From NCBI GenBank assembly GCA_963741075.1, contig CAVUGS010000012.1, positions 26,351 to 90,350 on the forward strand: a stretch of DNA of 64,000 bases, written 5' to 3'. Positions 37,120 to 58,885 of the stretch are shown here, piece after piece. Position numbers and translations under genes: made by a program. This DNA is from an uncultured Thermoleophilia bacterium. Lineage in GTDB: Bacteria > Actinomycetota > Thermoleophilia > UBA2241. Below the pieces are notes generated by a model. That model saw nothing but the letters and a program-made list of their open reading frames with translations. It was not told the origin of the DNA and did no database searches. The number at the start of each line of letters is the position of its first letter. The stretch's first letter is position 1.

Positions 37120-37831
37120 ATGCCGTCACGTCGGGCGCTCGCCGCCCTTCTCGTCCTGCTCGTCGCGCTCGTCGCCGGCGCGGCCGTGGGCGCTTCGGCC
37201 GCCCGCGCCGTCACGCGCGACGAGCTCATGAAGACGAGCCTGCTCGCCCTGCAGTGCGCCATCGAGAAGAGCGGCTCCGCGCACATGTACGTCTACCCTC
37301 ACCCGAGCTCCGTCTCGCCGACGGGCGGCCTCGCCAGCGTCTTCTGGCCGCGCGACCCGTGGACCGGCGGGCGTCTCACGCCCGGCGCCTCGCAGGGGCA
37401 CTACGCCTACGTTCGCGCGACGGACTACCGGAGCTACCGGCTCACCGGCTACCTCAGCGGCGGAAGGACCTTCGTCGTCACCGGCGGCATGACGCACACG
37501 CCGATGCTGGCCTACGACCATCGCGGCAAGGAGGGGCTCAACCTCCTCTTCCAGTACGTCAAGATGTGGTCGCGCAGCGCACGACGGGCGTCTGCCCACG
37601 GCGGCGATGGTCACGCGCGAGGGATCCGTGGGCCGGCAGCGGCGCGACCTGCTCTGGCCCAGCAACCCGTGGGACCACGGGGCCATGGAGCAGCGCGCCG
37701 ATCGCGGCTCCTTCGGCTACGTCCGCTCGGCCGACGGCAAGACGTTCACCCTGAACCTTCATCAGGCCCTGAAAGAGGACTACGTCCTCCAGGGCACGGC
37801 AGCACAATCGACCGCGGGAGACAGACCGTGA
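37120..37831 (+). CDS. Secreted protein with two WPxNP pilin-head-like domains (frameshift near 37590)
   Basis: Signal peptide ending AARA. Domains contain YP..WPRDPWTG and WPSNPWDH. Colinear with the 40064-41095 product. Confidence 0.8.
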
Positions 37832-39297
37832 AGCGGAACCTGTTCGCCGGCCGCCGCAGGAGTGGCGGCCTCAAGTTGGACGTGTTCACCGAGGACGAGA
37901 TCCAGGACATCCACCTGTCGACGCTCGAGGTGCTCGAGCGCACCGGCGTGTGGGTGGAGCTGGACGAGGCGCTCGACATCTACAGCGACGGCGGGTGCGT
38001 CGTCGACCGCGAGTCGCACATCGTGCGCATCCCGCCGCACGTGGTCGAGGACGCCATCGCCAGCGCGCCGCCGAGCGTGGTGCTCTGCGGCCGCGACCCG
38101 AGGAACGACATCTGCCTGGAGCCGGGCCGCGTGGGCTTCAGCAACTTCGGCGAGGGCATCCAGGTCATCGACCCGCGCACGGGCGAGCTGAGGGCCTCGA
38201 CGAAGAAGGACCTCGGAGAGATCGCCCGTCTGGTGGACGCGCTGGACGAGGTCGACGTGTTCGAGATGGCCGTCGTCTCCAGCGACCAGCCGCCGGCGTC
38301 GTTCTCGCTGCACAACCACGAGGCGGCCATCGTCAACCAGACGAAGCCGATCTCGGGCGGCGCCCAGGACGGCGACGCCGTCCACCGCACGGTGGACATG
38401 CTCGCCGCCGTCCAGGGCAGCAAGGACGCCGTGCGCGAGCGGCCGATGATGGTCATGGGCACCTGCCCGGTCAGCCCGCTCAAGCTCGTCAAGGACTTCT
38501 GCGAGATCGTCATCGAGTCCGCCCGCGTCGGCCTGCCGAGCTGCGTGCTCAGCATGGCCATGGCCGGCGGCTCGAGCCCGGTGACGCTCGCCGGCACGCT
38601 GGTCACCCACAACGCCGAGGTGCTCGCCGGCATCGTCCTCGGCCAGCTCACCGAGCGCGGCAGCAAGCAGCTCTACGGCTCGTCGACGACGGCCATGGAC
38701 CTGCGGCTCGTCGCGGCCTCGGTCGGCACGCCGGAGTGCGCGCTGATCAGCGCCGGCGCGGCGCAGCTCGCCAGGCAGTACCGCCTGCCGAGCTACATCG
38801 CCGGTGCGTAGGGGGACAGCAAGCTCAGTGACGTGCAGACCGGTCACGAGAAGACCCTCACGGCCCTCATGGCAGCGTTGGCAGGGACCAACCTGATCTA
38901 CGGCCTGGGAATGATCGAGTCGGGCGTCACCTTCGATTACGCGCAGCTGGTCATCGACAACGAGATCGCGCGCATGGTCAAGCACGTCGTCGGCGGCGTG
39001 CGCGTCGACGACGAGTCTCTGGCGGTGGACGACATCGCCGCCGTCGGTTCGTTCGGCGACTTCCTCAGCCTGGACGCGACGATGCGCCACATGCGCGACA
39101 CGTCGCAGCCGGAGCTCATCGACCGCCGCGTGCGCGAAGACTGGGAGGCGCGCGGCTCCAGCGACATGTACCAGCGCGCGATGGAGAAGGCGCGCGGCCT
39201 CCTGGAGACGCACCAGCCCGAGCCGCTGCCGGACGACGTGCTCAGGCAGGTGCGGAGCATCGTCGACAAGGCGGACCGGGAGCGGGCGACCGACTGA
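37828..39297 (+). CDS. mttB: Trimethylamine:corrinoid methyltransferase with in-frame TAG (codon 328), predicted pyrrolysine
   Basis: YIAGA-TAG(38809-11)-GDSKLSDVQTGHEKT continues in frame to TGA 39297. 489 aa, MttB motifs on both sides of the TAG. Confidence 0.9.
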
Positions 39298-39342
39298 CGG
39301 AGTCGCCCGCGGGGCTCACCGCCCGGTCGCCTCCGCCTCTCG

Positions 39343-40044
39343 TCAGCCGCCCGGCGATGTGCTCAGCTGGCCGAGCACCGGGAGCGCGCCGAGGGTGGTC
39401 GACCACCAGCCGTTGGTCAGCATCACCCTGAGCGCGTAGGTCGCCCCGCCGCCCGTGTAGCTGAAGCAGCCCACGGTGGTCCCGGCGGCCATGTCTGCGC
39501 CGGTCCAGGGGTTCTTGGGCCAGATGAAGCTCGTGCCGAAGCCTGTGGCAGTGACGACGTCGGGGGTTGGGTACGCGCCGGCATGTGACGCCGCGTAGGC
39601 CTCGACGTAGCGTTGCAGCAGCAACAGGTTCTGCTTCGATGCCGTGTTGCGCTCCGGTTTGAACCAGGCGGGGACGCCGCCCGTCAGCGGCCAATTGCCG
39701 CTCGACAGGTGGACGACGAACCTGTACGTCGCGCCGCTGGCGCTCGGGGTGTACGTGTAGGTGCCTCGCGCGGTGCCGGGCCCCATGATCCTTCCGGTCC
39801 AGGGGTTGGACGGCCAGATGCTCGTCGAGCCGGGGAGCCCGCCGCCCTTCTTGACCATCGACTTCGGAGGATAGATGAAGCGGTTGTTCTGTCCGTAGTC
39901 GTTGATGTACTTCTGGATGAGGAGCGCGCCGGCCTGCACCTGCTTGTCGACGAAGCTCACGGCCTCGGCGCGGGGCGCCGCGGCGGCGAGGAGCAGGGCG
40001 AGCACGGCGGTCGCAAGGACGACGGCGATCATGCGTCTGGTCAC
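39343..40044 (-). CDS. Secreted protein with two WPxNP pilin-head-like domains
   Basis: Signal peptide ending AEA. YPP..WPSNPWTG and YPT..WPKNPWTG. Confidence 0.82.
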   Translation of the reverse strand: MTRRMIAVVLATAVLALLLAAAAPRAEAVSFVDKQVQAGALLIQKYINDYGQNNRFIYPPKSMVKKGGGLPGSTSIWPSNPWTGRIMGPGTARGTYTYTPSASGATYRFVVHLSSGNWPLTGGVPAWFKPERNTASKQNLLLLQRYVEAYAASHAGAYPTPDVVTATGFGTSFIWPKNPWTGADMAAGTTVGCFSYTGGGATYALRVMLTNGWWSTTLGALPVLGQLSTSPGG

Positions 40045-40063
40045 GGGGTGCCTCCTGTGGTGG

Positions 40064-41095
40064 TCAGGGCTCCGGGGTGCCGGAGCCGCGCGCCGGCGCC
40101 GCAGGCGACGGCGCGGTGCCGCCGGCCTGGAAGTCGCCGGAGTGAAGATGGACGGTGAGGGTGAAGACGCCGGCGGCGCCGGGTGCGTACGTGAAGGCGC
40201 CGGGGCCGGTGCCCGGCAGCATCGCGGCGCCGCTGCTCGGGTCCTGCGGCCAGTCGGGATGCGCCGCGCCGACGGCGGCCGTCGGCGACATCTCGGTGAC
40301 CCTGGGCAGGGCGCCGGCGTGCTGCAGCGCCCACTGGTCGACGTAGCCCTTGAGGATCCGCCCGCTGCGGCGCAGGATCTCGTCCTCCAGGCTGGCCAGC
40401 AGCTGCTGCCAGGGGCTGGTCCTGATGGTCCCGGTGAGCACGTAGTCGCCCTTGAGGGCGCGGTGCAGGCGCAGCCGGTACGACGACCTGTCGGGGGCGA
40501 CCGCGTACGAGAACGAGCCGCGGTCGCGGCGCTGCACCATGACGGAGTGGTTCCACGGATTGCTCGGCCAGTAGTGGTGCTTCGGCTCGTTGCCCACGGG
40601 GCCGTCCGCGCGCACCTCACCCGGCATCGGGTACACGCCGTCGTGCGCGGCGGCGTAGTCCTCAACGTACTGACGGATGAGGTTGATGCCCTCTTCGCTG
40701 CGGTGGTCGTAGGCGAGCTTGACGAAGTGTGGCATGCCTCCGGAGAGGACGAAGGTGCGGCCGCCCTCGAGATAGCCGACGAGGTGGTAGCGGCGGCGGT
40801 CGCGGTTCACCGTGTAGCGGAAGTGCCCGCGACTGGTGCCCGGCGTCAGGTCGGAGCCGGTCCAGGGATCGTCGGGCCACCACGAGCCGCCGAGGTGTCC
40901 GGCGCGGACGGACGGGCCCCGCGGGTACGTGAAGAAGCGCTCGGCGCCCTGCCGGTCGATGAGGCCGCGCAAGGCCATCACGGCCTGGCGCATCTCGTCG
41001 TCGGGGGAGGCGGCGCGGGCCGGCGCGGCAGCGCCCGCGCCGACGCAGGCCGCCGCGAGCAGCGCGGCGCAGAGGATGAGCGTGAGTCGGATCAT
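40064..41095 (-). CDS. Secreted protein with three WPxNP pilin-head-like domains
   Basis: Signal peptide ending ARA. WPDDPWTG, WPSNPWNH, WPQDPSSG. Confidence 0.82.
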   Translation of the reverse strand: MIRLTLILCAALLAAACVGAGAAAPARAASPDDEMRQAVMALRGLIDRQGAERFFTYPRGPSVRAGHLGGSWWPDDPWTGSDLTPGTSRGHFRYTVNRDRRRYHLVGYLEGGRTFVLSGGMPHFVKLAYDHRSEEGINLIRQYVEDYAAAHDGVYPMPGEVRADGPVGNEPKHHYWPSNPWNHSVMVQRRDRGSFSYAVAPDRSSYRLRLHRALKGDYVLTGTIRTSPWQQLLASLEDEILRRSGRILKGYVDQWALQHAGALPRVTEMSPTAAVGAAHPDWPQDPSSGAAMLPGTGPGAFTYAPGAAGVFTLTVHLHSGDFQAGGTAPSPAAPARGSGTPEP

Positions 41096-41253
41096 GTGCT
41101 TGGTGATGGCCCCTTCTTCCTCTCCAGTGTCGCCGCAGGTGCGAGACGGGTCAACTGCGCCGGACATTCGCGGCCACGCGCCTGCTGATACGATTCGCCC
41201 CGGGCGCCGCGGAGCCTGCGGCCGCGCATCACTCTTGAGGCAAGGAGTTGCCG

Positions 41254-42640
41254 GTGGAAGCGAAGATCCCGACCCGTATGGGCGACGGGTTCATGGTCGA
41301 GATGTCGCGCAGCGAGCTGCGCGCCGATCTGGAGGACGCGACGCAGGCGGCGGCGCGCAAGGCCAAGGTCCCGCCGCTCGCGCAGGACGAGCTCGACCAC
41401 CTCCTGGACATCTACGCCTCGCGCGCCGCGTTCACCGCCGTCGACATCGGCGACCAGGTGGTCCTCAGCTGCGACGGCGGCGGCAGCAAGATGACCGGCA
41501 CCGACCTCCTCGACCTGCTCGAGAGCGAGCAGCGCCTGGGCCAGGACATCCTCGAGCTCTGGCACATCGAGTACAGCTACAAGGCCATCAAGACGATCCT
41601 GCCGTTCCAGCAGCAGGTGATGCAGAACTGCCAGCTGATGATGACGGCGCCGGTGCAGTACGGCGCGCAGCCCAACCTCGCCTTCTACAGCAAGCCCGAC
41701 GGACCGGCGGAGAACTGGTTCGAGCTGCTGCCGCGCGGCGACATCGCCGGCGCCCGCGCGGCCATCGACGAGGCCATGGATCACGCCACCAAGGACTTCA
41801 TCTACGTGGGCGAGGGCATGCTGGACGCCGGCGCCGACGGCATGGACTTCGACACCACCGGCGGCGCCGGCGACGCCGACTTCTTCAGCACGCTCCGCGC
41901 GGTGAAGCACCTGCGCGAGCACTACCCGGACGCCGGCATCGAGGTCGGCATGGCCGGCGAGTTCGTGATCGGCGTCCACGGCGAGCTCGAGTGGGACGGC
42001 CGCCGGCTGGCCGGGCTCTGGCCGAAGGAGCAACTCGAGGTGTGCCAGGACGCCGGCGCCACCATCTTCGGGCCGGCGGTGAACATCCGCACCGGCAAGA
42101 GCTGCGCCTGGAACGCGGCCTACTCGATCACGGTGACCAAGCCGTGCATGGACGTCGCCCGCATCCCCGTGCACCCCAACGTGGGCGAGGGAGTGGGCGG
42201 CGTGCCGGTGAACGGCTACCCGCCCGAGGACGCGGCGTCCCGGGCGGCCAAGGCGCACGTCGACATCCTCAAGTGCGACGGGTTGTAGGTGGGCTCGGGT
42301 GACTCCAGAGGCATGGACGTCACCCACGCGCTCGCCGCGGGCATGGGCGGGATGCGCACGGCCGGAGACCTGGTCGCGCGCATGCAGATGGCCCGCGGGA
42401 TGCGTCTGGACGAGGCGAAGCGGATACGTGGCCGAGAGGCTCGGCTGCACCGTCCGCGACCTCAGCGACAGCTACGCGATGGAGCAGATCCGCGGCGAGA
42501 AAGGCCTGGGCCGGATCCTCGACCACTCCAACCTGCACCCGGGCGAGCCGAACGCGATGATGGCCAAGTTCCGCATCGCCGAGCTGCTCGGCGTGCCGAT
42601 CAGGTCGGTGGAACGCTTTCGGGAGCTGGCGGGGCTGTGA
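41254..42640 (+). CDS. mtbB: Dimethylamine:corrinoid methyltransferase with in-frame TAG (codon 345), predicted pyrrolysine; 1-nt frameshift near 42423
   Basis: RMGDG, YGAQPNL..PDGP.EN, GADGMDFDTTG, GMAGEF, LAGLWP, CDGL-TAG(42286-88)-VGSGD..GM..AGDLVARMQ match the MtbB family. SD AAGGAG. Confidence 0.88.
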
Positions 42641-42739
42641 CGGGGCCGCCGTGGGGGCGGGCGGTTCTTCGGATGCCCGCTTGACCTCACGTCGAACGCT
42701 GCCGATAGGGGTGGCAGCGACTCTGGAGGGCAAAGCGAG

Positions 42740-43123
42740 ATGAAGCGGATCACGAGCGTGGTGCTCGTCGCGTTGCTGGCGCTCGGCGCCGCGGCGGCTC
42801 TCGGCGGCTGCGGTCTGCAGGACCAGGCCGTGGAGAACACCAGCGGCAAGATCGACGTGGCCAAGGACGCCGCCGTCAAGGCGCAGCTGCTGATGATCAA
42901 GACGGGCATCCAGGCGTACATCGCGACGAGCAGCACGCCGCCGGCCGACGCGTCGCAGGCGACGCTGGGCAACTTCGTGAGCCCCTGGCCCACGAACCCC
43001 TTCTCCAACAAGCCGATGAAGCCGGGAGGGGGCGCGGGCGACTACGTCTACGCGCCCGGCGCCGGCGCCGCGTACACGCTGTCGGTCAATCTCTCCGACG
43101 GGACGCAGTACACGGCGCCGTGA
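42740..43123 (+). CDS. Lipoprotein with a single WPxNP pilin-head-like domain
   Basis: Lipobox LGGC. WPTNPFSNKPMKPGGGAGDYVY. Confidence 0.82.
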   Translation: MKRITSVVLVALLALGAAAALGGCGLQDQAVENTSGKIDVAKDAAVKAQLLMIKTGIQAYIATSSTPPADASQATLGNFVSPWPTNPFSNKPMKPGGGAGDYVYAPGAGAAYTLSVNLSDGTQYTAP

Positions 43124-43174
43124 TTTGAGGCCACCCTCGGCAATTGCTACCCTAGTCTGAAGAAGGGGGTCGGT

Positions 43175-44290
43175 GTGGTGGGGTTCTCGGGGAGCGGGTG
43201 GCGCGTGAGACTCGGGCTGGTGGCGCTGGGCGTCGCCTGCCTGATCGGCATCTCCATCCCCATCGCCATGGGCGGCGACTCCACGCCCACGTGGCAGCTC
43301 AAGAGCTACTACAGCCGCGGCGTGGACCGGAGCTTCAAGGCCGACCTCTACGAGGAGATGCCCAAGGTGCCGCGCGTGCTCGTCTTCGGCGGCTCGCGCA
43401 GCCTGCGCATGGACCCGGCCACCATCAAGCGCAAGACCGGCCTCACGGCGTTCAACTTCGGCGTCCACAACGGCCGCCCCGAGGACGCCTGGGCGGTCAC
43501 CGACTGGGCGCTGGACAGCCATCCCGACAAGCCCCCGGCGGTCATCTGGTGCATGCAGGCGACCACGCTGGCCGACGTACCCATGAACCCCGGCCTCATC
43601 GTCGACGAGCGCCTCTCCCAGGCGTTCCCGCAGTCACTCATCGACGCCAAGATGAGCTGGGCCATGAAGCAGCCCAAGCGCAACATCCTCTCCGGCCGCC
43701 GGTACGGCTTCGACGGCATGCTGTGGTGGAACAGCTATGACGCCAAACGCCAGGCGGGCCTCACGCTGCAGCGGTCCCTCGACGGCTACCTCGACGCCGA
43801 CATGCTGGCCAGGGCCGGCAACGGCAAGATCCCGCGCGACACGCGGTCCATGGCGTACTTCGTGCGGACCATCCGTCTGCTCAACAAGCACCGCATCAAG
43901 CCGCTCATCGTGATCATGCCGTACCATCCGCGGGCGCTCAGCGCGTTCCTCTCGGTGGGCTGGGGCGTCAAGGAGAGGTGGCTGAGGACCTACCTCTCCA
44001 AGCTGTCCGAGCACCTGGACTTCAGGGTGCTGAACTGCCTGCGGATCAGCACCTTCGGCGGCACGGCGAACGGGTTCTACGACGGCGCGCACCTCACCGC
44101 GGACAACTCGCGGCGGCTCATCCGCTACTGCATCGCGCACGCGCCGTCGTGCTTCAGGCTGCCCCCGCCGCCGAAGCCCACGCCGAGCCCGTCGCCGAGC
44201 TCGAGCGCGAGCCCGGCGCCGCTGGTGCCCGCCCCGGCGTACACGCCGGTGCCCGAGGACACGAGCGCCCCGGCGGACTTCCTCGAGTAG
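43175..44290 (+). CDS. Exported SGNH/DltD-AlgX-like protein with Pro/Ser tail
   Basis: N-terminal TM/signal, VLVFGGSRS (block I), FYDGAHL (DxxH). TAG stop. Confidence 0.6.
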   Translation: MVGFSGSGWRVRLGLVALGVACLIGISIPIAMGGDSTPTWQLKSYYSRGVDRSFKADLYEEMPKVPRVLVFGGSRSLRMDPATIKRKTGLTAFNFGVHNGRPEDAWAVTDWALDSHPDKPPAVIWCMQATTLADVPMNPGLIVDERLSQAFPQSLIDAKMSWAMKQPKRNILSGRRYGFDGMLWWNSYDAKRQAGLTLQRSLDGYLDADMLARAGNGKIPRDTRSMAYFVRTIRLLNKHRIKPLIVIMPYHPRALSAFLSVGWGVKERWLRTYLSKLSEHLDFRVLNCLRISTFGGTANGFYDGAHLTADNSRRLIRYCIAHAPSCFRLPPPPKPTPSPSPSSSASPAPLVPAPAYTPVPEDTSAPADFLE

Positions 44291-47403: not shown

Positions 47404-48900
47404 TCAGTCTCCTATGGGCTGGAGGGAGCCGGCGATGCGCGCCAGTTCGTCCCTCGTGAGGTCGCCGGCCACGCTGACCGACACCTTACGGTCGCGGCCG
47501 GTGCTGACGTAGAGGTGTGGCCAGTCCGGCAGGCCGAGCACCACGCCGGCCGTCTGGCCGCGGAGGCTGCCGGTCGTGAGCTGGATACGGGTGGACTGGG
47601 CGAGCGCGACCGAGTTCTCGTCGAACGGGTCGTCTGAGCCGGGCGGGTTGTCCTGCCGCCAGCGGCTGACGATGCAGAAGCGGTCGAACCCGCGCCGGTA
47701 GGTGAGCACGACGGTGAGTGAGCCGACCTCGCCCTGGCGCACGGGACGGTACGCGCCGAGAAACGCGCCGTTCACCGCGCCGGTGACGCCGCTGAGACGG
47801 TAGCCGCGGGGGACCCACTCGGCCGCGTAGGGCGTGAAGCTGGTCGTCGCGCGCTCGCCGAGCGCGGCCGCCTGCCGCAGGCTCATGCGGCGGAACCGTT
47901 CGCTCATCGGCAGGAGCTTGTCCTTGACGTCGGCGGAGAGGCGGAACGTGCTCCGCGGCACGGCCCCGCCGACGCGTACGTTCTCGATACGCGTGCCGCT
48001 CACCTCGCCGTCGCTGCTCCAGTGCTCCACGGCGAGCGGGTAGCCGGACTGGGCGTCGACGACGATGCGGGCGGTGCCGTCGTCGCCTCCGCCCGCGAGC
48101 GGCTCCGGCACGGTGATGGACCAGGCGGTGCGCCCCTCCCACGTCACCGGAGTGACGGGGACATCGGGGTCCAGTTCGGCGATCACGGCGCGTGCATAGG
48201 CGGCGACGCTTCTGTCGAGCACCTGGGAGGCGCCCATCCACGGGCCGAAGAACGGGCCGGGATCCGGCAGGTCGCGCGCGACCTCGGAGTACAGCGCCTC
48301 GCCGTTGCGGAAGACGCAGCGACGCGCGACGCGCTTCACGGAATCGTAGGTGTAGGTGACGCCCCAGCCGGCCTGCTCGATGCGGTAGTCGCCGCCCGAG
48401 GTGAAGGTGAACGAGCCGACGGCGTGGGAGAACGGGCGGCCGCGCGCCGAGCCGTACTCGACGATATCGCCGCTGATGCTGCCGAGGTTCTCGAGCGCGT
48501 GCTGCACGCGGGCCAGCACGGTGCGGGCCGTGGCCTGCTGCGGCGTGGCCCGCTGGACGCCGGGCACGCCGGCCCAGGTGACGGCCACGGCGGCTACGAC
48601 CGCCGCCGCGACGGCTGCGACGGCGGCGAAGCGGATGCCGCGCCGCCGGCGCGGCGGCGCCGGCGGCACGCGCCGCGGGGCGCGGTACAGCGGAGGCGGT
48701 CCGCCGTCCGAGCCGGCGAGCTCGCGCATCCGCTCGCGGATGCGCTCGAAGTGGTCCGGGCGGTGCGCCGGCAGCGGCGACTCGCGCAGCTCGCGTCCCA
48801 GCTCGTCGTTCCAGCTCCCTCCTTCAGCGTGCGTGCGGCGGCCACTGAGCGGCGCGCCTTCGGCGCCCCGCTCGAAGACGTGGCTACGCCGGCCTTTCAC
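47404..48900 (-). CDS. Putative anti-sigma factor (cytoplasmic N-terminus, TM, LolA/RseB-like ectodomain)
   Basis: GTGA-coupled to the ECF sigma gene. One TM, large ectodomain. Confidence 0.7.
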   Translation of the reverse strand: MKGRRSHVFERGAEGAPLSGRRTHAEGGSWNDELGRELRESPLPAHRPDHFERIRERMRELAGSDGGPPPLYRAPRRVPPAPPRRRRGIRFAAVAAVAAAVVAAVAVTWAGVPGVQRATPQQATARTVLARVQHALENLGSISGDIVEYGSARGRPFSHAVGSFTFTSGGDYRIEQAGWGVTYTYDSVKRVARRCVFRNGEALYSEVARDLPDPGPFFGPWMGASQVLDRSVAAYARAVIAELDPDVPVTPVTWEGRTAWSITVPEPLAGGGDDGTARIVVDAQSGYPLAVEHWSSDGEVSGTRIENVRVGGAVPRSTFRLSADVKDKLLPMSERFRRMSLRQAAALGERATTSFTPYAAEWVPRGYRLSGVTGAVNGAFLGAYRPVRQGEVGSLTVVLTYRRGFDRFCIVSRWRQDNPPGSDDPFDENSVALAQSTRIQLTTGSLRGQTAGVVLGLPDWPHLYVSTGRDRKVSVSVAGDLTRDELARIAGSLQPIGD

Positions 48901-49466
48901 GACGTCTGCTCCCTCACATAGGCGTGCTCGCAGAGGAGCGTGCGCAGGCGGCTGCGGGCGGCGGCCAGACGGGACGAGACCGTCCCCTCCGGGACGCCGA
49001 CCACCTCCGCCGCCGTGCGGTAGTCGTAGCCGTACTGGTGGACGAGGATGACGAGCACGCGCTGCTCCACGGGGAGCTGGTCCAGCGCGTCCTCCAGGTC
49101 CGACCAGCGGGTGACGATCTCGCACGGGTCGTCGCAGGCGAAGTCCACCGGTGCGTCCTCGGACGTGAGCAGCTGGAAGCGGCGCTCACGACGCAGGTAG
49201 TCCAGGCAGGTGGTGTAGGTGATGCGGTAGAGCCACGTCCCCACTTCGCTGTCCCCGCGGAACGTGCGCAGCGCCTGATACGCCTTGAGAGAGGCGTCCT
49301 GCAGCGCGTCGTCCATCAGGACCGGGTCGCGGAGCATGCGGAACGCGAGGGCGCGCAGGCGGCTGTCGTAGTGCTTGAGCACGCGCACGAACGCCTCACC
49401 GTCGCCGCGCCGTGCGGCGCTCACGGTCTGCTCGTCGATCTCGCGTTCCGCCGGGTCGTAGGTCAC
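48897..49466 (-). CDS. ECF RNA polymerase sigma-70 factor
   Basis: DALQDASLKAY, FRGDSEVGTWLYRI, GVPEGTVSSRL. Confidence 0.93.
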   Translation of the reverse strand: MTYDPAEREIDEQTVSAARRGDGEAFVRVLKHYDSRLRALAFRMLRDPVLMDDALQDASLKAYQALRTFRGDSEVGTWLYRITYTTCLDYLRRERRFQLLTSEDAPVDFACDDPCEIVTRWSDLEDALDQLPVEQRVLVILVHQYGYDYRTAAEVVGVPEGTVSSRLAAARSRLRTLLCEHAYVREQTS

Positions 49467-49699: not shown

Positions 49700-50722
49700 T
49701 CACGGCACGGAGTACGTGAGCCCGTTGCTGAGGTAACCGGTGAGCTTGTAGGCCTGACCGCCGCTGAGCTGCTCGTACACGTAGCTGCCCGGCGCCGTGC
49801 CCGGGGCCATCGGCTGGCTGGTGAACGGGTTGGTCGGCCAGGGGTCCACGTACTGCGAGAGGCCGCCGCCGTCGACGACGTCCTGCGGCGGCGGGTACAG
49901 GTTGTTGTTGTCGGCCGCCCAGGCCACGATGCCGACCTGCAGCTTGGCGATGTTGGCGACGGCCTGATTGTCGGCCGTGGGCGAGCCTGATGGGCTCGGG
50001 GTCGGCGACGTGGTCGGCGACGGCGAGGCGGAGGGCGATGGCGACACGGTCGGCGTGGGTGAAGGCGTCGGGGTGGCCGGGAGCAGCACCTCGACGCGCA
50101 CGAAGTACACGGGCTCGATCGACAGGTCGCCGGCGGCGAACTGGAGTTGGAGGCGATCGCCCGCTTCGTGGGTGAGCGTCCCCTGGACCTTGCCGGTCAC
50201 GCCGGTGAGTCCGATGGCCGAGGCCTGCACGCTGATCCTGAGCTCGCCGTCGACGAGGTCCGCGGTGGTGGTGCCGACCTTCTCGAGCCGGCCGTCGTAC
50301 TGGGAGATCGCGAACTGCTCGCCGGACCGTTTGATGATGAGCCCGCCGCCCGTGCCGGATTCCGGCGCCCAGTTGCCGATGAACTCGTCGCCGGCCGTGG
50401 TGGAGTCCGTGGGCCGCAGGTAGAAGTACCACAGGGCGGCCGCGGCGGCGACGACGGCGAGGACGATGAGGAGCCAGACCCACCAAGGGACGCCTCCGCC
50501 CTCGTTGCTGCGGCCGCGCGTCATCATCAGCGTCGGCTGGCTGGGGGGCGGCGGAGGAGCTGCGCCCGCCGCCGGCATCACCCGCGTGGCGCCGGTGTCG
50601 GAGCCGGGCATGACCTGCGTCTGGCCCTCGTCGGCCGGCGGCATCACGCGCGTCTCGTCGTCCGGCGGCGTGACCCGGGTCAGCTCGGTGTCGTCGTCTG
50701 GCAGTCTGCGCTCATCGTCCAT
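49700..50722 (-). CDS. Bitopic membrane protein: TxVMP-repeat tail, TM, beta domain, P/T linker, C-terminal WPxNP domain
   Basis: Intact 340 aa. C-terminal YPPP..WPTNPFTSQPMAPGTAPGSYVY. Confidence 0.82.
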   Translation of the reverse strand: MDDERRLPDDDTELTRVTPPDDETRVMPPADEGQTQVMPGSDTGATRVMPAAGAAPPPPPSQPTLMMTRGRSNEGGGVPWWVWLLIVLAVVAAAAALWYFYLRPTDSTTAGDEFIGNWAPESGTGGGLIIKRSGEQFAISQYDGRLEKVGTTTADLVDGELRISVQASAIGLTGVTGKVQGTLTHEAGDRLQLQFAAGDLSIEPVYFVRVEVLLPATPTPSPTPTVSPSPSASPSPTTSPTPSPSGSPTADNQAVANIAKLQVGIVAWAADNNNLYPPPQDVVDGGGLSQYVDPWPTNPFTSQPMAPGTAPGSYVYEQLSGGQAYKLTGYLSNGLTYSVP

Positions 50723-52075: not shown

Positions 52076-52194
52076 GCCTTGCATCCTATCCCAGCCTCGG
52101 TGACCCTCGAGCCGGTCAGTCGACGTTGACTGCGGCGCGAAGCGGGTAATACTGAACGGATACGATGGCGTGGGCAAGCTTCGGGGGAGGCTTC

Positions 52195-53348: not shown

Positions 53349-53356
53349 GGGGCCCG

Positions 53357-53806
53357 ATGGCGAAGGCGAAGCGCAGACAGTACCCGACCAACGAGCCGCC
53401 GCGGTTCTACTGGGAGATCTGGCGCGACCCCGGGCAGGGCTACATCCCGTACTTCTGGGAGGAGCTCACGTCCCAGGCGATGATCCTCTTCCTCTTCCTC
53501 GGCGTGATCGGGGGCATCGCGCTGCTGTGGCCGGCCGATCTGGCGCCGCAGGCGAACGTGCTGGTCACGCCGTCCGGCATCAAGCCCGAATGGTACTTCC
53601 TCGGGCTGTTCCAGTTGATCAAGGTCATCCCGGAGATCGCGGGCCTGGTGCTCGTTGCGGTGGTCGTCGTGCTGATGGTGATCCTTCCCTTCGTCGACCG
53701 CAGTCCCGAGCGCAATCCGCTGCGTAAGCCCGTGACGACGACTATCGCCGTCGTCATCGTCGTCGCCCTCGTCGCCCTCACGATCTGGGGCGCGGTGACG
53801 CCGTGA
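53357..53806 (+). CDS. Cytochrome b C-terminal (subunit IV-like)
   Basis: IKPEWYF, LPFVD. Confidence 0.92.
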   Translation: MAKAKRRQYPTNEPPRFYWEIWRDPGQGYIPYFWEELTSQAMILFLFLGVIGGIALLWPADLAPQANVLVTPSGIKPEWYFLGLFQLIKVIPEIAGLVLVAVVVVLMVILPFVDRSPERNPLRKPVTTTIAVVIVVALVALTIWGAVTP

Positions 53807-53820
53807 CCACAGGAGGCACG

Positions 53821-54674
53821 ATGAAGCGCATTCCTGTGCGGGCCTGGCCCGCGCTCCTCGTCGGGCTGGCTCTCGCCGCCGCCGGATGCGCGAGTCTGGC
53901 GACGCCCGAGGCACCGAGCACCGGGTCCCCGGCGGCCACGGCCGTCGCCAACCTGAGCCAGCAGGTCAAGGACGGCGGGCAGCTCTACGTGAGCCTGGCC
54001 TGCGTCCGCTGTCACGCGCCCAACGGGGTCGGCGGCGTCCCGAATCGGCTCAACGTGGGCGGCGACAGCACGATCCCGCCGCTCAACAACCAGTTTCGCG
54101 ACCAGAGCGAGCAGTTCCGCAGCGCACCACAGATCAGCCAGGTCCTCCAGGAGGGCGCCATCCTCAGCAAGAAGCCCGGCGTGATCAACATGCCGTCGTG
54201 GAAGGGCGTCATCAACGATGCGCAGGCGAACGCGATCGCCGCCTACATCCTCGCGGGGTTCCCGGACACGGGTGCGACGTATGACCCCGACCCCGCGAAG
54301 GCGGCCGACATCTACAGCGCCTACGCCTGCATCGACTGCCACGGCCAGGTCGGCGGCACATCTCTCCCGTCGCCGGCGCCGAACCCGAAGACCGAGGACA
54401 AGCTCGTGCCCGCCTGCGCAACCCGGACGATCCCGTCCCGATGAGCGAGCTGCGCTCGGTGCTGATGGAGGGGTCGATCCCCGACCCCGGGACGAAGGGC
54501 GTCATCTTCATGCCGGCGTGGGGCCAGATCCTCTCTACGGACCAGGTGAACGCGATCCTGCCGTACATCGTCGACGGGCCAAAGGCGACGAAGCTTCCGG
54601 CACCGGAGCCCGCCTCGCCGCTGCCGCTGTCCGGCGGCTCGTCCATCACTCCGTCGTCTTCGGCGTCGCCGTGA
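53821..54674 (+). CDS. Di-heme c-type cytochrome lipoprotein (frameshift near 54420)
   Basis: Lipobox LAAAGC, CVRCH and CIDCH, distal Met motifs INMP/IFMP. Internal duplication. Confidence 0.85.
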
Positions 54675-54985
54675 TGAACGGGCTCGCCCTCATCCTTGCG
54701 CAGGGGATCCCCCTGGCGCCATCCCTGCAGGTGCGGCTCATCGCGCTGGTGGTCGTCGAGCTCGTCCTCCTCACGACCGCGGTGCTGCTCTACCTGCTGT
54801 GGGTGCGCCTCAAGGGCGAGCCGCTCGACGAGTGGTGGGAGCGGCGCATGCGGGGCGGGTTCTCGCCGCGCACGAGGGCCCTCATGGAGGAAGAGGAGCG
54901 CGAGCGGCTGGCGGCCGTCGCTGCGGGCGGCGCCTCCCCGACGACGAAGGGGCCGCCCGGGTCCGAGGGCGGAGCCGGCGACTAA
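54674..54985 (+). CDS. Small single-TM protein at the end of the bc operon
   Basis: TGATG coupling, one long hydrophobic helix. Confidence 0.55.
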   Translation: MNGLALILAQGIPLAPSLQVRLIALVVVELVLLTTAVLLYLLWVRLKGEPLDEWWERRMRGGFSPRTRALMEEEERERLAAVAAGGASPTTKGPPGSEGGAGD

Positions 54986-55023
54986 GCCAACGGCTCTCCA
55001 GGCCGCACCCCCGGTACGGGGCC

Positions 55024-56001
55024 TCAGCCGGCCAGTGCTCTGGCGTACAGTTCGTAGGCGGAGGTCGCCTGCATCCCGGCGCGCTCGTACAGGCGCAGCG
55101 GCCGGGTCTCACCCTCGGCGTCGACGCCCAGGTCCACGCGCAGCTGCCCGCGGGCGAAGAACGCGGCGAGGGCGTGCGCCAGCAGGGCCCCGCCGAGGCC
55201 GCGACGGCGCCAGGGACGGCGCACGCCGAGGCCTTTGATCCAGCCGAGGTCGCCGTGGTCGTAGGCGACGAGGCCACCGACGGCTTCGCCCGTGTCTCCG
55301 TCCCAGGCGATCCACCACAGGTCGGGGTCGAAGTCGGCGTGCCCGAGCAGGCGGGCGCGCCAGGCGTCGAAGGGCTCCTGGCTCTGGCGGAAGTGGTCCT
55401 CGAACGCCTCGTTCATCAGTCCGTACAGCGCGCGCTCGTCGGCCTCGAGCCGGAAGGGCCGGATCTCGAGGCCCGCGGGAACCTCCGCGAACGGGGCGCC
55501 GCCGCTGAGGTCGGCCGTCATCCGGTACACGGTGCGCGCGAGGGTGTAGCCGTGGCGCCGCAGGAGGTCGCGTTTGGCCCGGTTGGCGGCCATGCAGAAG
55601 ACGTCCAGCTTCGGTTCGGGGTAGCCGCGCTCCACCGCGAGCTGCGCGGCCCGCCGCTCGGCGAGGCCGAGCAGCCGGCCGCCGAGCTCCGGCTCGTGAT
55701 GCGCGGGATGCACCCACAGGTCGGCCTCGAGCTCGCCGGTGCGGAACTGGTCGCCGGCGTAGGCGTAGCCCACGAGCCCTTCGGGTCCCTCCGCCACCCA
55801 GGCGTCGCGGGACGGGTCGAAGCCCTCCATGGCCCAGTCGTTCTCGAGGTCGTCGAGGGTGCTGTCGGGCTGTCCGACCTCCGCCACGTCGCAGGCGCAC
55901 AGCAGGTCGACGATCTCCGGCAGGTCGCCGCGCGTGGCGGGCCGGATGCGGCTTGGCGCGCGGAGCCCGCCTTCCGTGGCTTGTCTACGGCGGCTGTTCA
56001 A
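55024..56001 (-). CDS. Tandem-GNAT acetyltransferase (MshD-like architecture)
   Basis: Two GNAT folds: WVHPAH..LGGRLL and GVRRPWRRRGLG..LYERAGM. Confidence 0.8.
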   Translation of the reverse strand: MNSRRRQATEGGLRAPSRIRPATRGDLPEIVDLLCACDVAEVGQPDSTLDDLENDWAMEGFDPSRDAWVAEGPEGLVGYAYAGDQFRTGELEADLWVHPAHHEPELGGRLLGLAERRAAQLAVERGYPEPKLDVFCMAANRAKRDLLRRHGYTLARTVYRMTADLSGGAPFAEVPAGLEIRPFRLEADERALYGLMNEAFEDHFRQSQEPFDAWRARLLGHADFDPDLWWIAWDGDTGEAVGGLVAYDHGDLGWIKGLGVRRPWRRRGLGGALLAHALAAFFARGQLRVDLGVDAEGETRPLRLYERAGMQATSAYELYARALAG

Positions 56002-56710
56002 GTGGTCTCCGCCGCGTCCTTGGTGAGCGGGATGGTCTGGTCGAAGTCGTCACCCGATGGAGCCGTGCCCACGATGCGCAGGTCGAGGTGGGTCGCGTCC
56101 ACGCTGCCGAAGATCATCTTGAAGTCGCCGGCGAGCGCCTTGAGCGTCGCCTTGAAGGCCTCGGCGTTGCCCTCGCCCGCCATCTGCGAGAAGTCGTCCA
56201 CGGTGATGACCAGGTCGGTGCCGTCCAGGTGAGCCGGCACGGTGATCTTCTGACTCTGGTCGTTCCCTGTGATGGCGACGGAGAACGCATCGCCCTGCTG
56301 CGCGACGGCGATGCTGGCGATGCCCTGCTGGGTGGCGGCCGTCCAGGTGCCGAGGAACTCCTCGCCGGTGGTGGCCGGACCGCGGAGGACGAAGAACCAC
56401 ACGAGGACGATGGCGATGACGGCGATGACGCCGATGACGAGCACCAGCTTGAGCAGGCCGGACGAACCGGCCGCGGCCGGCGCCGCGCCGCCGCGGGCTG
56501 CGGCTGGTACTCCGGCCCCCACTCACCTTGATTGCTGGAGGCCGGCGGAGCTCCGTAGGCCGGCGCGCCTGCGGCGCCCCCGTAGGCGGGGTGATAGTCG
56601 CCGGCGCCGGGAGCCGCGGCCATGCCGGCGCCGGCGACCGGCGCCCCGCACACGCCGCAGGTCCAGTCACCGTCTTTGAGCGGAGCACTGCAGCTGGGGC
56701 ACTCGGCCAT
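55998..56710 (-). CDS. Zinc-ribbon + TM + extracellular beta-domain protein (frameshift near 56520)
   Basis: CPSC..CGVC, then TM (LLKLVLVIGVIAVIAIVLVWFFVL), then EEFLGTW domain. Confidence 0.7.
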
Positions 56711-56814
56711 CAGATCCCCCTCGGGAGCCGGCTTCTGCGGCTGCGCAGACTCCGCGCGGCCGCCACGCCAAGTCTATCGGCTCGGGGACGCGCAGCCATG
56801 ACTCCGGCGCGCCG

Positions 56815-58116
56815 TCAGAACTCGAGCTTCTCCAGCCGGGCGAAGATCACGTCGCGCCCGGCCCGGTACTGGTCCGGGTCCATGGCCGCGTCGATCTCCT
56901 CGGCGGACATGACGGCCATGGCCTCGTCACTGGCCTTGATGAGGTCGCCGAAGTCGACGCCGTCGCGCCACGCCTGCATCGCCGCGTCCTGCACGACGCG
57001 GTAGGCGTCCTCGCGCAGCATGCCCTTGTCGACGAGGGCCAGCAGGACCGCCCCGCTGAAGACGAGGCGGTAGCTCTGGCCCAGGTTTGCCAGCATGCGC
57101 TCCTCGTCCACGACGAGGTTGTCGATGAGCCTGGTGAACTTCTGCAGCATGTAGTCGAGAAGGATCGTGCTGTCGGGCAGCACGATGCGCTCGGCCGAGC
57201 TGTGGCTGATGTCGCGCTCGTGCCACAGCGCCACGTTCTCCATGCCCACGAGCGCGTTGCCGCGCAGCACGCGCGCGCAGCCGGCCATGCGCTCGCTGAG
57301 GATAGGGTTGCGCTTGTGCGGCATGGCCGAGGACCCCTTCTGGCCTTTGCCGAACGCCTCCTCGGCCTCACGCACCTCGGTGCGCTGCAGGTGGCGCACC
57401 TCGGTGGCGAACTTCTCGATGCTCGAGCCGACGATGGCGATCGCGGAGAGAAAGGCGGCGTGCCGGTCGCGCTGCACCACCTGGTTGCTGATCGGCTCGC
57501 GGCCGATGTCGAGCTCCTCGCAGACGAGGTCCTCGACGCGCGGGTCGATGTTGTTGTACGCGCCGACGGCGCCGCTGATCTTGCCGACGGAGGCGTTGAC
57601 GGTGACGGTGCGCATGCGCTTGAGGTGGCGGCTGACCTCGAACGCCCAGATGCCGAGCTTCATGCCGAAGGTGATGGGCTCGGCGTGGATGCCGTGGGTG
57701 CGGCCCACCTCGACGGTGTCGCGGAACTCGAACGCGCGCCGCAGGAGCACCTCGCCGAGCGCGACGAGGTCGCGCTCGAGGAGCAGGCCGGCGCGCTTGA
57801 TCTGCAGCGCCAGGGCGGTGTCGAGCATGTCGCTGCTGGTCATGCCGTAGTGGACGTACTTGCTGGCCTCGCCGACGTACTCGGCGACGTTGGTGAGGAA
57901 GGCGATGACGTCGTGGTTGGTCGTCGCCTCGATCTCGTTGACGCGGGCCACGTCGAACGCAGCCTTGGCCTCGATCTCGCGGACCGCGTCGTCGGGGATC
58001 CTGCCGAGCCTGTTCCAGGCCTTCACGGCGGCGACCTCGACGTCCAGCCAGGCCTGCATCCGTGCCTCGTCGGTCCAGATCGCGCCCATCTCAGGGAGCG
58101 TGTAGCGCTCGATCAT
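56815..58116 (-). CDS. purB: Adenylosuccinate lyase
   Basis: MIERY, HDVIAF, GRTHGIHAEP, GSSAMPHKRNP. Confidence 0.97.
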   Translation of the reverse strand: MIERYTLPEMGAIWTDEARMQAWLDVEVAAVKAWNRLGRIPDDAVREIEAKAAFDVARVNEIEATTNHDVIAFLTNVAEYVGEASKYVHYGMTSSDMLDTALALQIKRAGLLLERDLVALGEVLLRRAFEFRDTVEVGRTHGIHAEPITFGMKLGIWAFEVSRHLKRMRTVTVNASVGKISGAVGAYNNIDPRVEDLVCEELDIGREPISNQVVQRDRHAAFLSAIAIVGSSIEKFATEVRHLQRTEVREAEEAFGKGQKGSSAMPHKRNPILSERMAGCARVLRGNALVGMENVALWHERDISHSSAERIVLPDSTILLDYMLQKFTRLIDNLVVDEERMLANLGQSYRLVFSGAVLLALVDKGMLREDAYRVVQDAAMQAWRDGVDFGDLIKASDEAMAVMSAEEIDAAMDPDQYRAGRDVIFARLEKLEF

Positions 58117-58246
58117 CGGTGCCCTCCGCGGCCGCCGGCGTCACGGCTGGGCCGGCTCCGCCGGCCGCCGCCTGTCGTCGCCCGCGATTCTCTCACACCG
58201 GCCGCGCGGCGCGGCGCACCTGGCGCGCCGCGCCGCTGGACGTGTG

Positions 58247-58885
58247 TCACTTCCCGATGGTGCTGCCGTCGGAGAGGTAGGCGACGAGCGAGTAGCTGTC
58301 TCCGCCGTCTACCGTCTTGTACACGTAGTCGCCTTTGCCCGTCCCCGGCTGCATGGGCTGGCCGGTGAACAGGTTCTTCGGCCAGGATGTCATCTGGCCC
58401 AGCGCTCCCGTCGGCGACACTTCAGCTGCCGGCGGGTACTTCTTGCCGCCGCCGGCCTTCCACTTCGCGAGGGCGCGCCGGATCGTGGTCAGCCCCAGAC
58501 CGACGGCGGCGTCGTTGTACTGCGCCTCGCTCACGCGCCTCAGCGTCGTCTTCTCCGGCTTCTCGACTGCGTCACCGCTGAGGTCGAGCGTGAGCTTGTC
58601 CGTCCCCGCCGGCACGAACGTCAGCGTCACCGCGTGCGTGTCGATGATCAGGGCGCCATCTTCGAGCGTCGGCGCAGGCGCCTCGTAGTCCGGATTCGCG
58701 TACACCTTGTACGCGTCGCCCGCCTTGAGGATGTGGACGAGCTGCATGCTCGCGTTACCGCCACCGGCCCAGTAGCCCGCCAACGGATCCTCGGCGGCCT
58801 TCGGCGCTCCGCCGCAGGCGGCGAAGGTCACGGCGAGAAGCACTGCGGCCAGCAGGGAGGTGAGTGGCAGGACGGCGCGCCGCAT
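58247..58885 (-). CDS. Lipoprotein: beta domain + C-terminal WPxNP domain
   Basis: Lipobox FAAC. DPLAGYW domain, then YPP..WPKNLFTGQPMQPGTGKGDYVY. Confidence 0.82.
   Translation of the reverse strand: MRRAVLPLTSLLAAVLLAVTFAACGGAPKAAEDPLAGYWAGGGNASMQLVHILKAGDAYKVYANPDYEAPAPTLEDGALIIDTHAVTLTFVPAGTDKLTLDLSGDAVEKPEKTTLRRVSEAQYNDAAVGLGLTTIRRALAKWKAGGGKKYPPAAEVSPTGALGQMTSWPKNLFTGQPMQPGTGKGDYVYKTVDGGDSYSLVAYLSDGSTIGK

What the first reader, a model, noticed from the sequence alone, without database searches (positions are those of the whole stretch)
37120..58885. Expanded family of an unnamed pilin-head-like WPxNP domain: 10 copies in 6 exported proteins
Seen: an ~85-90 aa module, D-[amphipathic helix]-[Y/W]..YP....V...WPx[N/D]P[W/F]TG..M.PG...G.[Y/F].Y....[Y/F].L...LS.G. 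Copies: 37120-37831 (x2), 39343-40044 (x2), 40064-41095 (x3), 42740-43123 (x1), 49700-50722 (x1), 58247-58885 (x1). All are exported, but by three routes: Sec signal peptide, lipobox, or internal TM with P/T linker. Inference: the helix-YP-loop-beta-meander pattern resembles type IV pilin/GspG head domains. None has a class III prepilin (G|F...E) peptide, so this may be a lineage-specific surface system built from pilin heads without pilus assembly. I cannot name the family.
Basis: partly seen in the sequence, partly recalled or inferred. Interest (0 to 1): 0.8.

Follow-up and report, generated by a model that had tools for sequence, protein, structure and literature searches.

The report
Pilin heads exported without pilin signals
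Six conserved genes of an uncultured soil actinobacterium (class Thermoleophilia) carry ten copies of the globular head of the organism's own type IV pilin, but with ordinary secretion, lipoprotein or membrane-anchor signals instead of the pilin signal, so a pilus building block seems to have been re-used as a free-standing envelope domain whose function is still unknown.

Summary
Ten copies of a ~90-aa WPxNP module lie in six ORFs at the stated coordinates. All pairs are related far beyond chance.

The pilin reading is now shown by sequence. On another contig the same genome encodes a genuine class III PilA (G|FTLIELL...) inside a type IV pilus locus, and its head is this domain. A profile of the ten copies aligns with a profile of 17 genuine PilA heads at 99.5% probability (E 5e-23). 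Several of those PilA orthologues pass Pfam's T2SSG (GspG) cut-off. The six window proteins hit no Pfam, NCBIfam or PDB sequence model directly. AlphaFold gives a confident helix-plus-sheet domain. Foldseek support is weak: TM 0.53 to Thermus PilA4, and no significant E-value.

None of the six has a class III peptide. They carry Sec-type signals, lipobox cysteines, or an internal TM with a P/T stalk.

The family is confined to one uncultured Thermoleophilia family, with 1-16 copies per genome and up to six per protein. It is syntenic in about 40 species and under purifying selection.

Function is inferred only. Most likely these are non-polymerising envelope or surface proteins that use the pilin head as a binding scaffold.

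This is a new variant of a known kind, of moderate interest.

The parts
37120..37831 (+). P1. A Sec-signal protein with two pilin-head copies: a at 37213-37491 and b at 37574-37801. The frame is broken near 37572. The TGA stop (37829-31) overlaps the GTG start (37828) of the Pyl-type mttB.
   Evidence: intact orthologue in L004:1702-2520
39343..40044 (-). P2. A Sec-signal protein (MTRRMIAVV...AEA|VS) with two copies: a at 39673-39954 and b at 39385-39651. It starts 19 nt after the P3 stop, so P3 and P2 form an operon.
40064..41095 (-). P3. A Sec-signal protein with three copies: a at 40733-41005, b at 40424-40711 and c at 40112-40390. Copies a and b are the closest paralogues of P1 a and b.
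   Evidence: The AlphaFold model has three repeats of one helix plus three strands, pLDDT 83.6.
42740..43123 (+). P4. A 127-aa lipoprotein (lipobox ...LGGC|G) with one copy at 42860-43117. It lies 100 nt downstream of the Pyl-type mtbB.
   Evidence: AlphaFold gives pLDDT above 93 over the domain.
49700..50722 (-). P5. In order: an N-terminal ~78-aa Pro-rich cytoplasmic extension, a TM segment, an uncharacterised ~100-aa domain, a ~50-aa P/T/S linker, and a C-terminal pilin head at 49706-49978.
58247..58885 (-). P6. A lipoprotein (...FAAC|GG) with an uncharacterised N-terminal domain and one C-terminal copy at 58250-58519.
   Evidence: Homology with orthologues begins at Cys24.

Best explanation
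The WPxNP module is the soluble part of this lineage's own type IVa major pilin PilA: the amphipathic alpha1-C helix plus the alpha-beta loop and beta-sheet head. PilA is a T2SSG/GspG-like pilin.

In one uncultured family of Thermoleophilia this part was duplicated away from the class III signal peptide and the hydrophobic alpha1-N polymerisation helix. It was then placed behind ordinary export signals and multiplied. These steps are shown.

The following is inferred. The products leave the cytoplasm by Sec. They are either released or wall-associated (P1-P3, with 2-3 heads in tandem), tethered by a lipid (P4, P6), or tethered by a TM helix with a P/T stalk (P5). Without alpha1-N and Glu5 they cannot enter a type IV filament, so they work as monomeric or beads-on-a-string envelope proteins.

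The anchored forms are topological copies of an unassembled pilin sitting in the membrane. The conserved residues (YP, WPxNP[WF], G..Y.Y, Y.L) are core-packing residues shared with PilA, and none are catalytic-type. The domain is therefore most likely a stable display or binding scaffold, for adhesion, matrix formation or protein-protein contact at the cell surface, with the variable loops carrying specificity.
For: Homology to pilin:
- The genome's genuine PilA (MKRFRKGQRG|FTLIELLIVIIIIGILAAIAIPMF...YVDNWPNNPWT) is hit by the ten-copy profile (sequence).
- It lies in a locus with PilM, PilD, PilC, PilT and PilB.
- hhalign of the copies against 17 genuine PilA heads gives 99.5% probability, E 4.9e-23.
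- An HMM built only from pilin heads hits all ten copies.
- The ten-copy HMM hits 108 of 120 PilA orthologues over at least 70 positions.
- PilA orthologues pass Pfam N_methyl, and some pass T2SSG.

Fold:
- The P4 model has a 42-residue helix, a short helix and three strands, with domain pLDDT above 93.
- The only full-length Foldseek matches are pilins: 6xxd PilA4 at TM 0.53, 4lw9 EpsG at 0.41, 6t8s PilA1 at 0.42.

Not pilins:
- No class III motif occurs in the window or in the 150 best representatives.
- The lipobox Cys of P4 is invariant.
- There are up to six heads per chain.

Real genes:
- Synteny is kept in about 40 species-level genomes.
- dN/dS is 0.2-0.55.
- All 21 sampled genomes of the family carry 1-16 copies.

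Graded series:
- Leaderless forms that keep alpha1-N (...AAIAIPMFLNQRDKAKDS...) behind long N-terminal extensions are shown.
- They group with true pilins, followed by the C14 form, then P5/P4, then P6, then the tandem secreted forms.
Against: - No experimental or expression evidence exists.
- Export routes are read by eye, not by a trained predictor.
- Foldseek E-values are all above 0.4, and the three-domain model gave only noise. The structural support on its own is weak, and the case rests on sequence homology.
- The tree is unrooted and built on ~96 columns, so the direction from pilin to non-pilin is inferred from the wide distribution of pilins.
- Nothing identifies a ligand or partner. 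No informative domain fusions were found.
- dN/dS is fairly high for proteins under strong constraint.
- Conserved adjacency to methylamine methyltransferase genes hints at a more specific role that this explanation ignores.
Confidence: 0.6

Rival explanations
1. The proteins belong functionally to the methylated-amine pathway. They would be extracytoplasmic partners (sensing, capture or uptake of TMA/DMA) of the pyrrolysine-containing methyltransferases MttB and MtbB with which P1-P4 are interleaved.
For: - The P1 stop overlaps the mttB start (GTGA at 37828-31), and P1 abuts mttB in the same way in L004, where the P1 stop lies at 2518-2520.
- P4 lies 100 nt downstream of mtbB.
- The P4-mtbB adjacency is kept in more than 30 genomes.
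- It is kept even where the order is swapped to P4 then mtbB, in L039 and L041.
Against: - The P genes persist where mttB (L003, L009, L012, L016) or mtbB (L014, L037) is absent.
- P5, P6 and the C14 copy are unlinked to these genes.
- No transporter or sensor gene lies in the cluster.
- A 90-aa pilin head has no known small-molecule pocket.
- All the genomes belong to one family, so shared order may simply be inherited.
Confidence: 0.12
2. They are pilus-head mimics. Secreted or surface-tethered copies of the PilA head would act as decoys for pilus-binding phages. Alternatively they would act as docking sites or regulators that contact the cell's own or its neighbours' pili.
For: - The domain is the exposed part of the organism's own major pilin.
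- The forms closest to PilA (C14, P5, P4) are membrane-tethered with the head outward.
- The genome has a complete pilus locus with two pilA genes.
Against: - Identity to PilA heads is only ~25-40%. The tandem secreted copies are the most diverged, which is poor for mimicry of a phage receptor surface.
- The genes are not linked to the pilus locus.
- They show no diversifying hotspots or defence-island context. This was not tested beyond the neighbours.
Confidence: 0.1
3. They are unconventional pilins that are still processed and polymerised by the type IV machinery, or by another filament system.
For: - They share the pilin head.
- Some relatives retain the alpha1-N sequence AAIAIPMF.
- The genome encodes PilD, PilB and PilC.
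Against: - The Gly-1/Phe+1/Glu+5 motif is absent in all six.
- After signal cleavage P1-P4 and P6 have no hydrophobic helix.
- Two to six heads in one chain cannot pack into a type IV filament.
- P5 and the alpha1-N-retaining forms have 50-100-aa cytoplasmic extensions in place of a short leader.
Confidence: 0.05
4. They are decaying leftovers of pilin gene duplications with no function.
For: - P1 is frameshifted in this assembly, and P1 is present in only a few relatives.
- dN/dS is relatively high.
Against: - Intact orthologues with conserved order exist in about 40 species.
- dN/dS is below 1 in every comparison.
- The P4 lipobox and 46 columns are invariant across 18 orthologues.
- Ribosome-binding sites are good.
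- The assembly shows indels in unrelated essential-looking genes too, including MtbB, PilA, PilC and PilT. The P1 break is therefore probably an error.
Confidence: 0.03

Closest known systems
Type IVa major pilin PilA of the same lineage (Pfam N_methyl PF07963 + T2SSG PF08334-like head), e.g. G000 C7:204068-204517 and orthologues P0272-P0390
   Same: The head domain is the same. It comprises the alpha1-C helix (…KDAAVKEGIHSIQVGVQSYAVDNND-YP), the YVDNWPKNP[WF]T loop, G-[DN]-Y-x-Y, and the F-x-L-x-G strand. The profile-profile match is 99.5%.
   Different: The window proteins lack the class III leader, Phe1/Glu5 and the hydrophobic alpha1-N. Instead they have Sec, lipoprotein or TM-plus-stalk export signals, and up to three heads per chain here (six elsewhere).
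Major pseudopilins GspG/PulG/EpsG/XcpT of type II secretion (Pfam T2SSG; e.g. PDB 4lw9)
   Same: The overall helix-plus-small-sheet head is shared. The motif W-P-x-N-P-W corresponds to the D-P-W-G-x-P-Y region. Foldseek gives TM 0.41 to EpsG. PilA orthologues of this lineage pass the T2SSG cut-off.
   Different: The six proteins do not hit the T2SSG model directly, even at E <= 1. There is no N-methylation motif. No calcium-site or secretion-system context was seen.
Geobacter sulfurreducens GSU1497 (PilA-C / Spc)
   Same: It is a pilin globular part encoded apart from the alpha1 helix and carrying its own signal peptide. [quoted passage not shown]
   Different: GSU1497 is a single copy encoded next to the short pilin, and it rejoins that pilin. 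Here both pilA genes are full length. The head genes are unlinked to the pilus locus, keep alpha1-C, and have expanded into a multigene, multi-repeat family.
Recombinant N-terminally truncated ('delta-N') pilins used for crystallography
   Same: The same segment of the pilin, alpha1-C plus head, exists as a soluble, monomeric, non-polymerising protein (established knowledge of pilin structural biology).
   Different: Those are laboratory constructs. Here the truncation is natural, exported and conserved.

Membership tests
Type IV pilin / pseudopilin (class III signal peptide proteins) | Short basic leader ending in Gly, followed by Phe/Met +1 and Glu +5 (prepilin peptidase site, Pfam N_methyl) | tested here: not met
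   The motif is absent in all six proteins and in every frame of the window. Pfam N_methyl is not hit. The same scan finds it in the genome's true pilins on C7 and C26.
Type IV pilin / pseudopilin (class III signal peptide proteins) | About 20-25 hydrophobic residues of alpha1-N at the mature N-terminus, for membrane retention and filament core packing | tested here: not met
   After the predicted cleavage sites P1-P4 and P6 start directly with the amphipathic helix. P5 has a TM segment, but behind a ~78-aa extension and separated from the head by ~150 residues.
Type IV pilin / pseudopilin (class III signal peptide proteins) | Globular head: alpha1-C packed on an antiparallel beta-sheet, homologous to known pilin heads | tested here: met
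   hhalign gives 99.5% to genuine PilA heads. A pilin-only HMM hits all copies. AlphaFold models show a helix plus three strands. The best full-length Foldseek hits are pilins, but not significant.
Type IV pilin / pseudopilin (class III signal peptide proteins) | Processing by PilD and polymerisation by a PilB/PilC machine | not testable with these tools
   The machinery genes exist on contig C7, unlinked to the window. No biochemical data are available.
Pfam T2SSG (PF08334) | Score at or above the gathering threshold (21 bits) against the family model | tested here: not met
   The six proteins give no hit even at E <= 1. Their PilA homologues reach 26.4 and 30.6 bits. Membership is therefore only transitive, at superfamily level.
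Bacterial lipoproteins (Lgt/Lsp pathway) for P4 and P6 | Signal peptide ending in a lipobox with invariant Cys +1 | tested here: met
   P4 has ...AALGGC|G, with Cys24 invariant in 18 orthologues. P6 has ...TFAAC|GG, with orthologue homology starting at the Cys. The -3/-2 positions are not strictly canonical, and no predictor was available.

The most novel reading that the evidence does not exclude
A whole bacterial family has released the pilin head from type IV filament machinery. It has turned the head into a general-purpose, Sec/Lsp-exported envelope module that builds a pilus-independent surface system. On this reading the tandem-head chains (2-6 heads) form a wall-associated coat or matrix, and the lipid- and TM-tethered heads act as its membrane attachment points. 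Alternatively they serve as extracytoplasmic partners of the neighbouring pyrrolysine-dependent methylamine genes. Leaderless forms that keep alpha1-N would be surviving intermediates of this transition.
Probability: 0.2. Interest if true: 0.75.

Novelty: new variant of a known kind. Interest (0 to 1): 0.5.

Why it matters
Type IV pilins are defined by their signal peptide and polymerisation helix, and the head is normally seen only as cargo of that system. Here the head is kept and the defining pilin features are discarded. The result is a conserved multigene family of 654 clusters at 50% identity, with up to 16 copies per genome. It includes a graded series of intermediates that still carry alpha1-N without a cleavage site.

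This gives a natural example of how a filament subunit is exapted into ordinary secreted, lipid-anchored and membrane-anchored proteins. It also shows that signal-based pilin finders and Pfam miss a sizeable set of pilin-fold envelope proteins in uncultured soil Actinomycetota.

In practice, the domain deserves a family model so that these 'hypothetical proteins' are annotated.

Tried and rejected
- **Direct family searches.** Searches of the six proteins against Pfam and NCBIfam, and of the ten-copy profile against PDB sequences, gave only sub-threshold noise such as 2C_adapt, SefA, FlgD and the reaction-centre S subunit.
- **Foldseek with the three-domain P3 model.** It returned only spurious low-TM hits such as PURA, HIV RT and PCNA. 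Multi-domain queries are unsuitable here.
- **The search for related loci with the divergent ten-copy alignment.** It failed for lack of a conserved 7-10-column stretch. An alignment of P4 orthologues worked.
- **Rosetta-stone search.** I looked for informative extra domains in longer family members and found none.
- **Shared N-terminal domain in P5, P6 and ORF 55998-56522.** There is only a weak 44-residue match between P5 and ORF 55998 (E 3e-5 pairwise). Nothing is significant for P6 against P5 outside the pilin head.
- **A Geobacter-like split pilin, with an alpha1-only pilin needing a separate head.** Rejected, because both pilA genes on C7 encode full heads.
- **Literature.** Searches found no description of this family.
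Full report
**Observation**

The region contains six ORFs carrying ten copies of a ~90-residue module:
- P1, 37120-37831 (+), two copies.
- P2, 39343-40044 (-), two copies.
- P3, 40064-41095 (-), three copies.
- P4, 42740-43123 (+), one copy.
- P5, 49700-50722 (-), one copy.
- P6, 58247-58885 (-), one copy.

Aligned, the copies share invariant P29, W47, P48, G64 and Y68 and near-invariant P51. The consensus is helix ... YP ... WPxNPWTG..M.PG...G.Y.Y......Y.L...LS.G. A genome-wide scan with their profile finds exactly these ten in the window, at E 7e-35 to 8e-25, and two more on other contigs. Nearly all pairwise BLASTP comparisons are significant, at 1e-4 to 1e-37.

All six genes have GGAGG-type ribosome-binding sites and TGA stops. 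P2 starts 19 nt after P3.

P1 changes frame near 37572. Its orthologue in L004 is uninterrupted and reads ...TWSRAHDGRLP.... The assembly also shows indels in MtbB, PilA, PilC and PilT, so I regard the break as a probable sequencing error.

**What the domain is**

Direct searches of the six proteins found nothing in Pfam or NCBIfam. The ten-copy profile found nothing in PDB sequences.

The decisive lead came from the organism's own genome, a 3.3-Mb assembly that is 67% complete, in 29 contigs. The twelfth profile hit (C7:204068-204517, E 5.5e-11) is a textbook type IV pilin, MKRFRKGQRG|FTLIELLIVIIIIGILAAIAIPMFLNQRDKAKDAGVKEGVHSIQVGVQSYAVDNDDAYP...YVDNWPNNPWT. It sits in a locus with PilM, the prepilin peptidase PilD, PilC, PilT and PilB, plus a second full-length pilA and minor pilins.

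Its many orthologues are annotated PilA or GspG and carry Pfam N_methyl. They show the same head motif...YVDNWPKNP[FW]TN..M....GDYTY.....F.L.GH.SNG.DFTVP. Several pass the T2SSG gathering score, at 26.4 and 30.6 bits against a cut-off of 21.

Three reciprocal tests tie the window copies to these pilin heads:
- The profile of the ten copies aligns with a profile of 17 genuine PilA heads at 99.5% probability, E 4.9e-23, over 94 columns.
- An HMM built only from the pilin heads hits all ten window copies and the C14 copy. With Z set to 1e5, E runs from 3e-20 (the C14 copy; 2e-15 for P5) to 5e-4.
- The ten-copy HMM hits 108 of 120 PilA orthologues over at least 70 positions.

AlphaFold models are confident. 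The P4 domain has pLDDT above 93, with a 42-residue helix, a short helix and three strands. P3 has pLDDT 83.6 and shows three such units.

Foldseek is only weakly supportive. The only full-length matches to P4 are pilins, namely Thermus PilA4 6xxd at TM 0.53, EpsG 4lw9 at 0.41 and C. difficile PilA1 6t8s at 0.42, but all E-values exceed 0.4. The P3 search was noise. The identification therefore rests on sequence homology, which is strong.

**What the proteins are not**

None of the six has a class III signal peptide. No such motif occurs in any frame of the window, while the same scan recovers the true pilins elsewhere in the genome.

- P1-P3 have Sec-type signals ending in AxA.
- P4 and P6 have lipobox cysteines. 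Cys24 of P4 is invariant in 18 orthologues.
- P5 has a ~78-residue Pro-rich extension, a TM helix, an unknown domain, a ~50-residue P/T/S linker and then the head.

After cleavage the mature proteins begin with the amphipathic alpha1-C equivalent. P4's QDQAVENTSGKIDVAKDAAVKAQLLMIKTGIQAYIAT aligns with PilA's NQRDKAKDAAVKEGIHSIQVGVQSYAVDNN. The hydrophobic alpha1-N and Glu5 that drive polymerisation are missing. Chains with two to six heads cannot fit a type IV filament.

**Distribution and evolution**

- Against 1.84 billion representatives, the profile finds 654 clusters at E <= 1e-3, with up to six repeats per protein. None of the best 150 has a class III peptide.
- Related loci all come from uncultured Thermoleophilia or Actinomycetota MAGs.
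- In an even sample of 121 genomes of the class, all 21 genomes of the window's family have 1-16 copies. Only 1 of 100 genomes from other families has a weak hit.
- The gene order up35340-(P1)-mttB-P2-P3-mtbB-P4-(X)-FAD oxidase-(anti-sigma, sigma)-P5-aroA ... purB-P6-ridA is kept in about 40 species-level genomes.
- dN/dS against orthologues is 0.2-0.55. That indicates purifying but not stringent selection.
- Seven representatives retain the pilin alpha1-N (...AAIAIPMFLNQRDKAKDS...) behind long N-terminal extensions and without the G|FTLIE site.
- In a FastTree of 279 domains, the true pilins form one clade (support 84). That clade nests with these leaderless forms, followed by the C14-type, P5/P4, P6 and finally the large clade of tandem secreted domains.
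- The tree is unrooted and short. I infer the direction from pilin to non-pilin from the universality of pilins.

**How it most likely works**

Shown:
- The homology to PilA heads.
- The loss of pilin signals.
- The presence of alternative export signals.
- Conservation across species.

Inferred: the proteins are Sec-exported, non-polymerising envelope proteins. The lipid- and TM-anchored forms reproduce the topology of an unassembled pilin in the membrane, with the head outward. P5 adds a stalk long enough to cross the wall. The tandem forms are released or wall-associated strings of heads.

The conserved positions are shared with PilA and are aromatic, proline or glycine core residues. No catalytic-type residues are conserved. 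I therefore read the domain as a stable scaffold for binding or adhesion, with the variable loops carrying specificity.

I put about 0.95 on the homology, about 0.75 on non-polymerising Sec/Lsp export, and about 0.4 on the adhesive or binding-scaffold role. Overall confidence is 0.6.

**Rivals**

- *A role in methylamine metabolism.* The P1 stop overlaps the mttB start. P4 stays next to mtbB even where their order is reversed, in L039 and L041. However, the P genes persist where mttB or mtbB is missing, and three family members are unlinked to these genes. Confidence 0.12.
- *Pilus-head mimicry, as a phage decoy or pilus docking site.* This is conceivable but untested. Identity to PilA is low. 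Confidence 0.1.
- *Unconventional polymerising pilins.* Disfavoured by the evidence above. Confidence 0.05.
- *Decaying duplicates.* Disfavoured by the evidence above. Confidence 0.03.

**Comparison with what is known**

The closest relatives are the lineage's own PilA and, more distantly, the GspG/T2SSG pseudopilins.

The only literature precedent I found for a pilin head encoded apart from alpha1 with its own signal peptide is Geobacter GSU1497 (PilA-C). It is a single gene next to the short pilin, which it rejoins (PMC5174107). Here the pilA genes are full length and the head genes form an expanded, dispersed family. Two further literature searches found no description of this family.

I treated it as a lead. 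My conclusion here rests on independent tests in this genome.

**Verdict**

This is a new variant of a known kind: pilin and T2SSG-like heads detached from the type IV filament pathway. It is a real, lineage-specific and previously unannotated family of unknown function. Interest is moderate, at 0.5.

Noticed in passing
window 37828-39297 and 41248-42640; genome C29:60-785: mttB has an in-frame TAG at 38809-38811 and mtbB has one at 42286-42288. Both are confirmed as Pfam MTTB and Dimeth_PyL. The one-codon gap is conserved in relatives. The genome encodes a PylS C-terminal domain well above the curated cut-off, 323.6 against 178 bits. This Thermoleophilia lineage therefore very probably decodes UAG as pyrrolysine.
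   Followed up: partly
window ~37572 (P1) and ~42425 (mtbB); genome C7:200-209 kb: Single-base frame changes interrupt P1, mtbB, both pilA genes, pilC, pilT and pilD-adjacent ORFs. P1 is intact in L004. The assembly is probably indel-rich. Many related MAGs carry 'MFD' isolate names and large contigs.
   Followed up: partly
genome C7:195000-209300: A complete type IV pilus locus is present: pilM, pilN/O-like, minor pilins, the prepilin peptidase pilD, two tandem full-length pilA genes with the WPxNP head, pilC, pilT and pilB.
   Followed up: partly
genome C14:46440-47156 (+): This is a twelfth family member. It has a conserved ~100-aa N-terminal cytoplasmic domain (MLVATFGPNTAWQGREI...GHGAIPAAGVLDYDRLGQLVWA...) with no Pfam hit, then a TM helix and one pilin head. 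Orthologues are P0172, P0243 and P0261, and some of them keep the pilin alpha1-N sequence.
   Followed up: partly
proteins P0195, P0215, P0233, P0239, P0261 (database representatives): These are leaderless 'pilins'. The full mature pilin sequence, including ...AAIAIPMFLNQRDKAKDS..., lies behind 50-130-residue Pro-rich or globular N-terminal extensions. The G|FTLIE cleavage site is missing. They are candidate intermediates between pilins and the non-pilin family.
   Followed up: partly
window 50100-50420 (P5), 55998-56522 (-), 58560-58810 (P6): A recurrent module just after the membrane anchor, [FY].G.W......L.I...G..Y.V.G..., precedes the pilin head in P5, P6 and many representatives (P0159, P0237, P0248, P0252, P0257, P0264). 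It also occurs alone in ORF 55998-56522. Pairwise support is weak, at E 3e-5 for P5 against ORF 55998 and none for P6 against P5. There is no Pfam hit.
   Followed up: partly
L039:2166-3820 and L041:2243-3773: In two more distant genomes the P4-like lipoprotein gene lies directly upstream of mtbB, on the same strand with a 126-nt gap. In the window it lies downstream. The pair stays together through a rearrangement.
   Followed up: partly
window 43175-44290 (+), 35340-36767 (-), 47404-49125 (-): These conserved neighbours have no Pfam match. One is a 371-aa membrane-anchored protein with a P/S-rich tail directly after P4. The other two are paralogous ~360-430-aa exported proteins, one of them downstream of an ECF-type sigma factor gene.
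   Followed up: no
   Followed up: no
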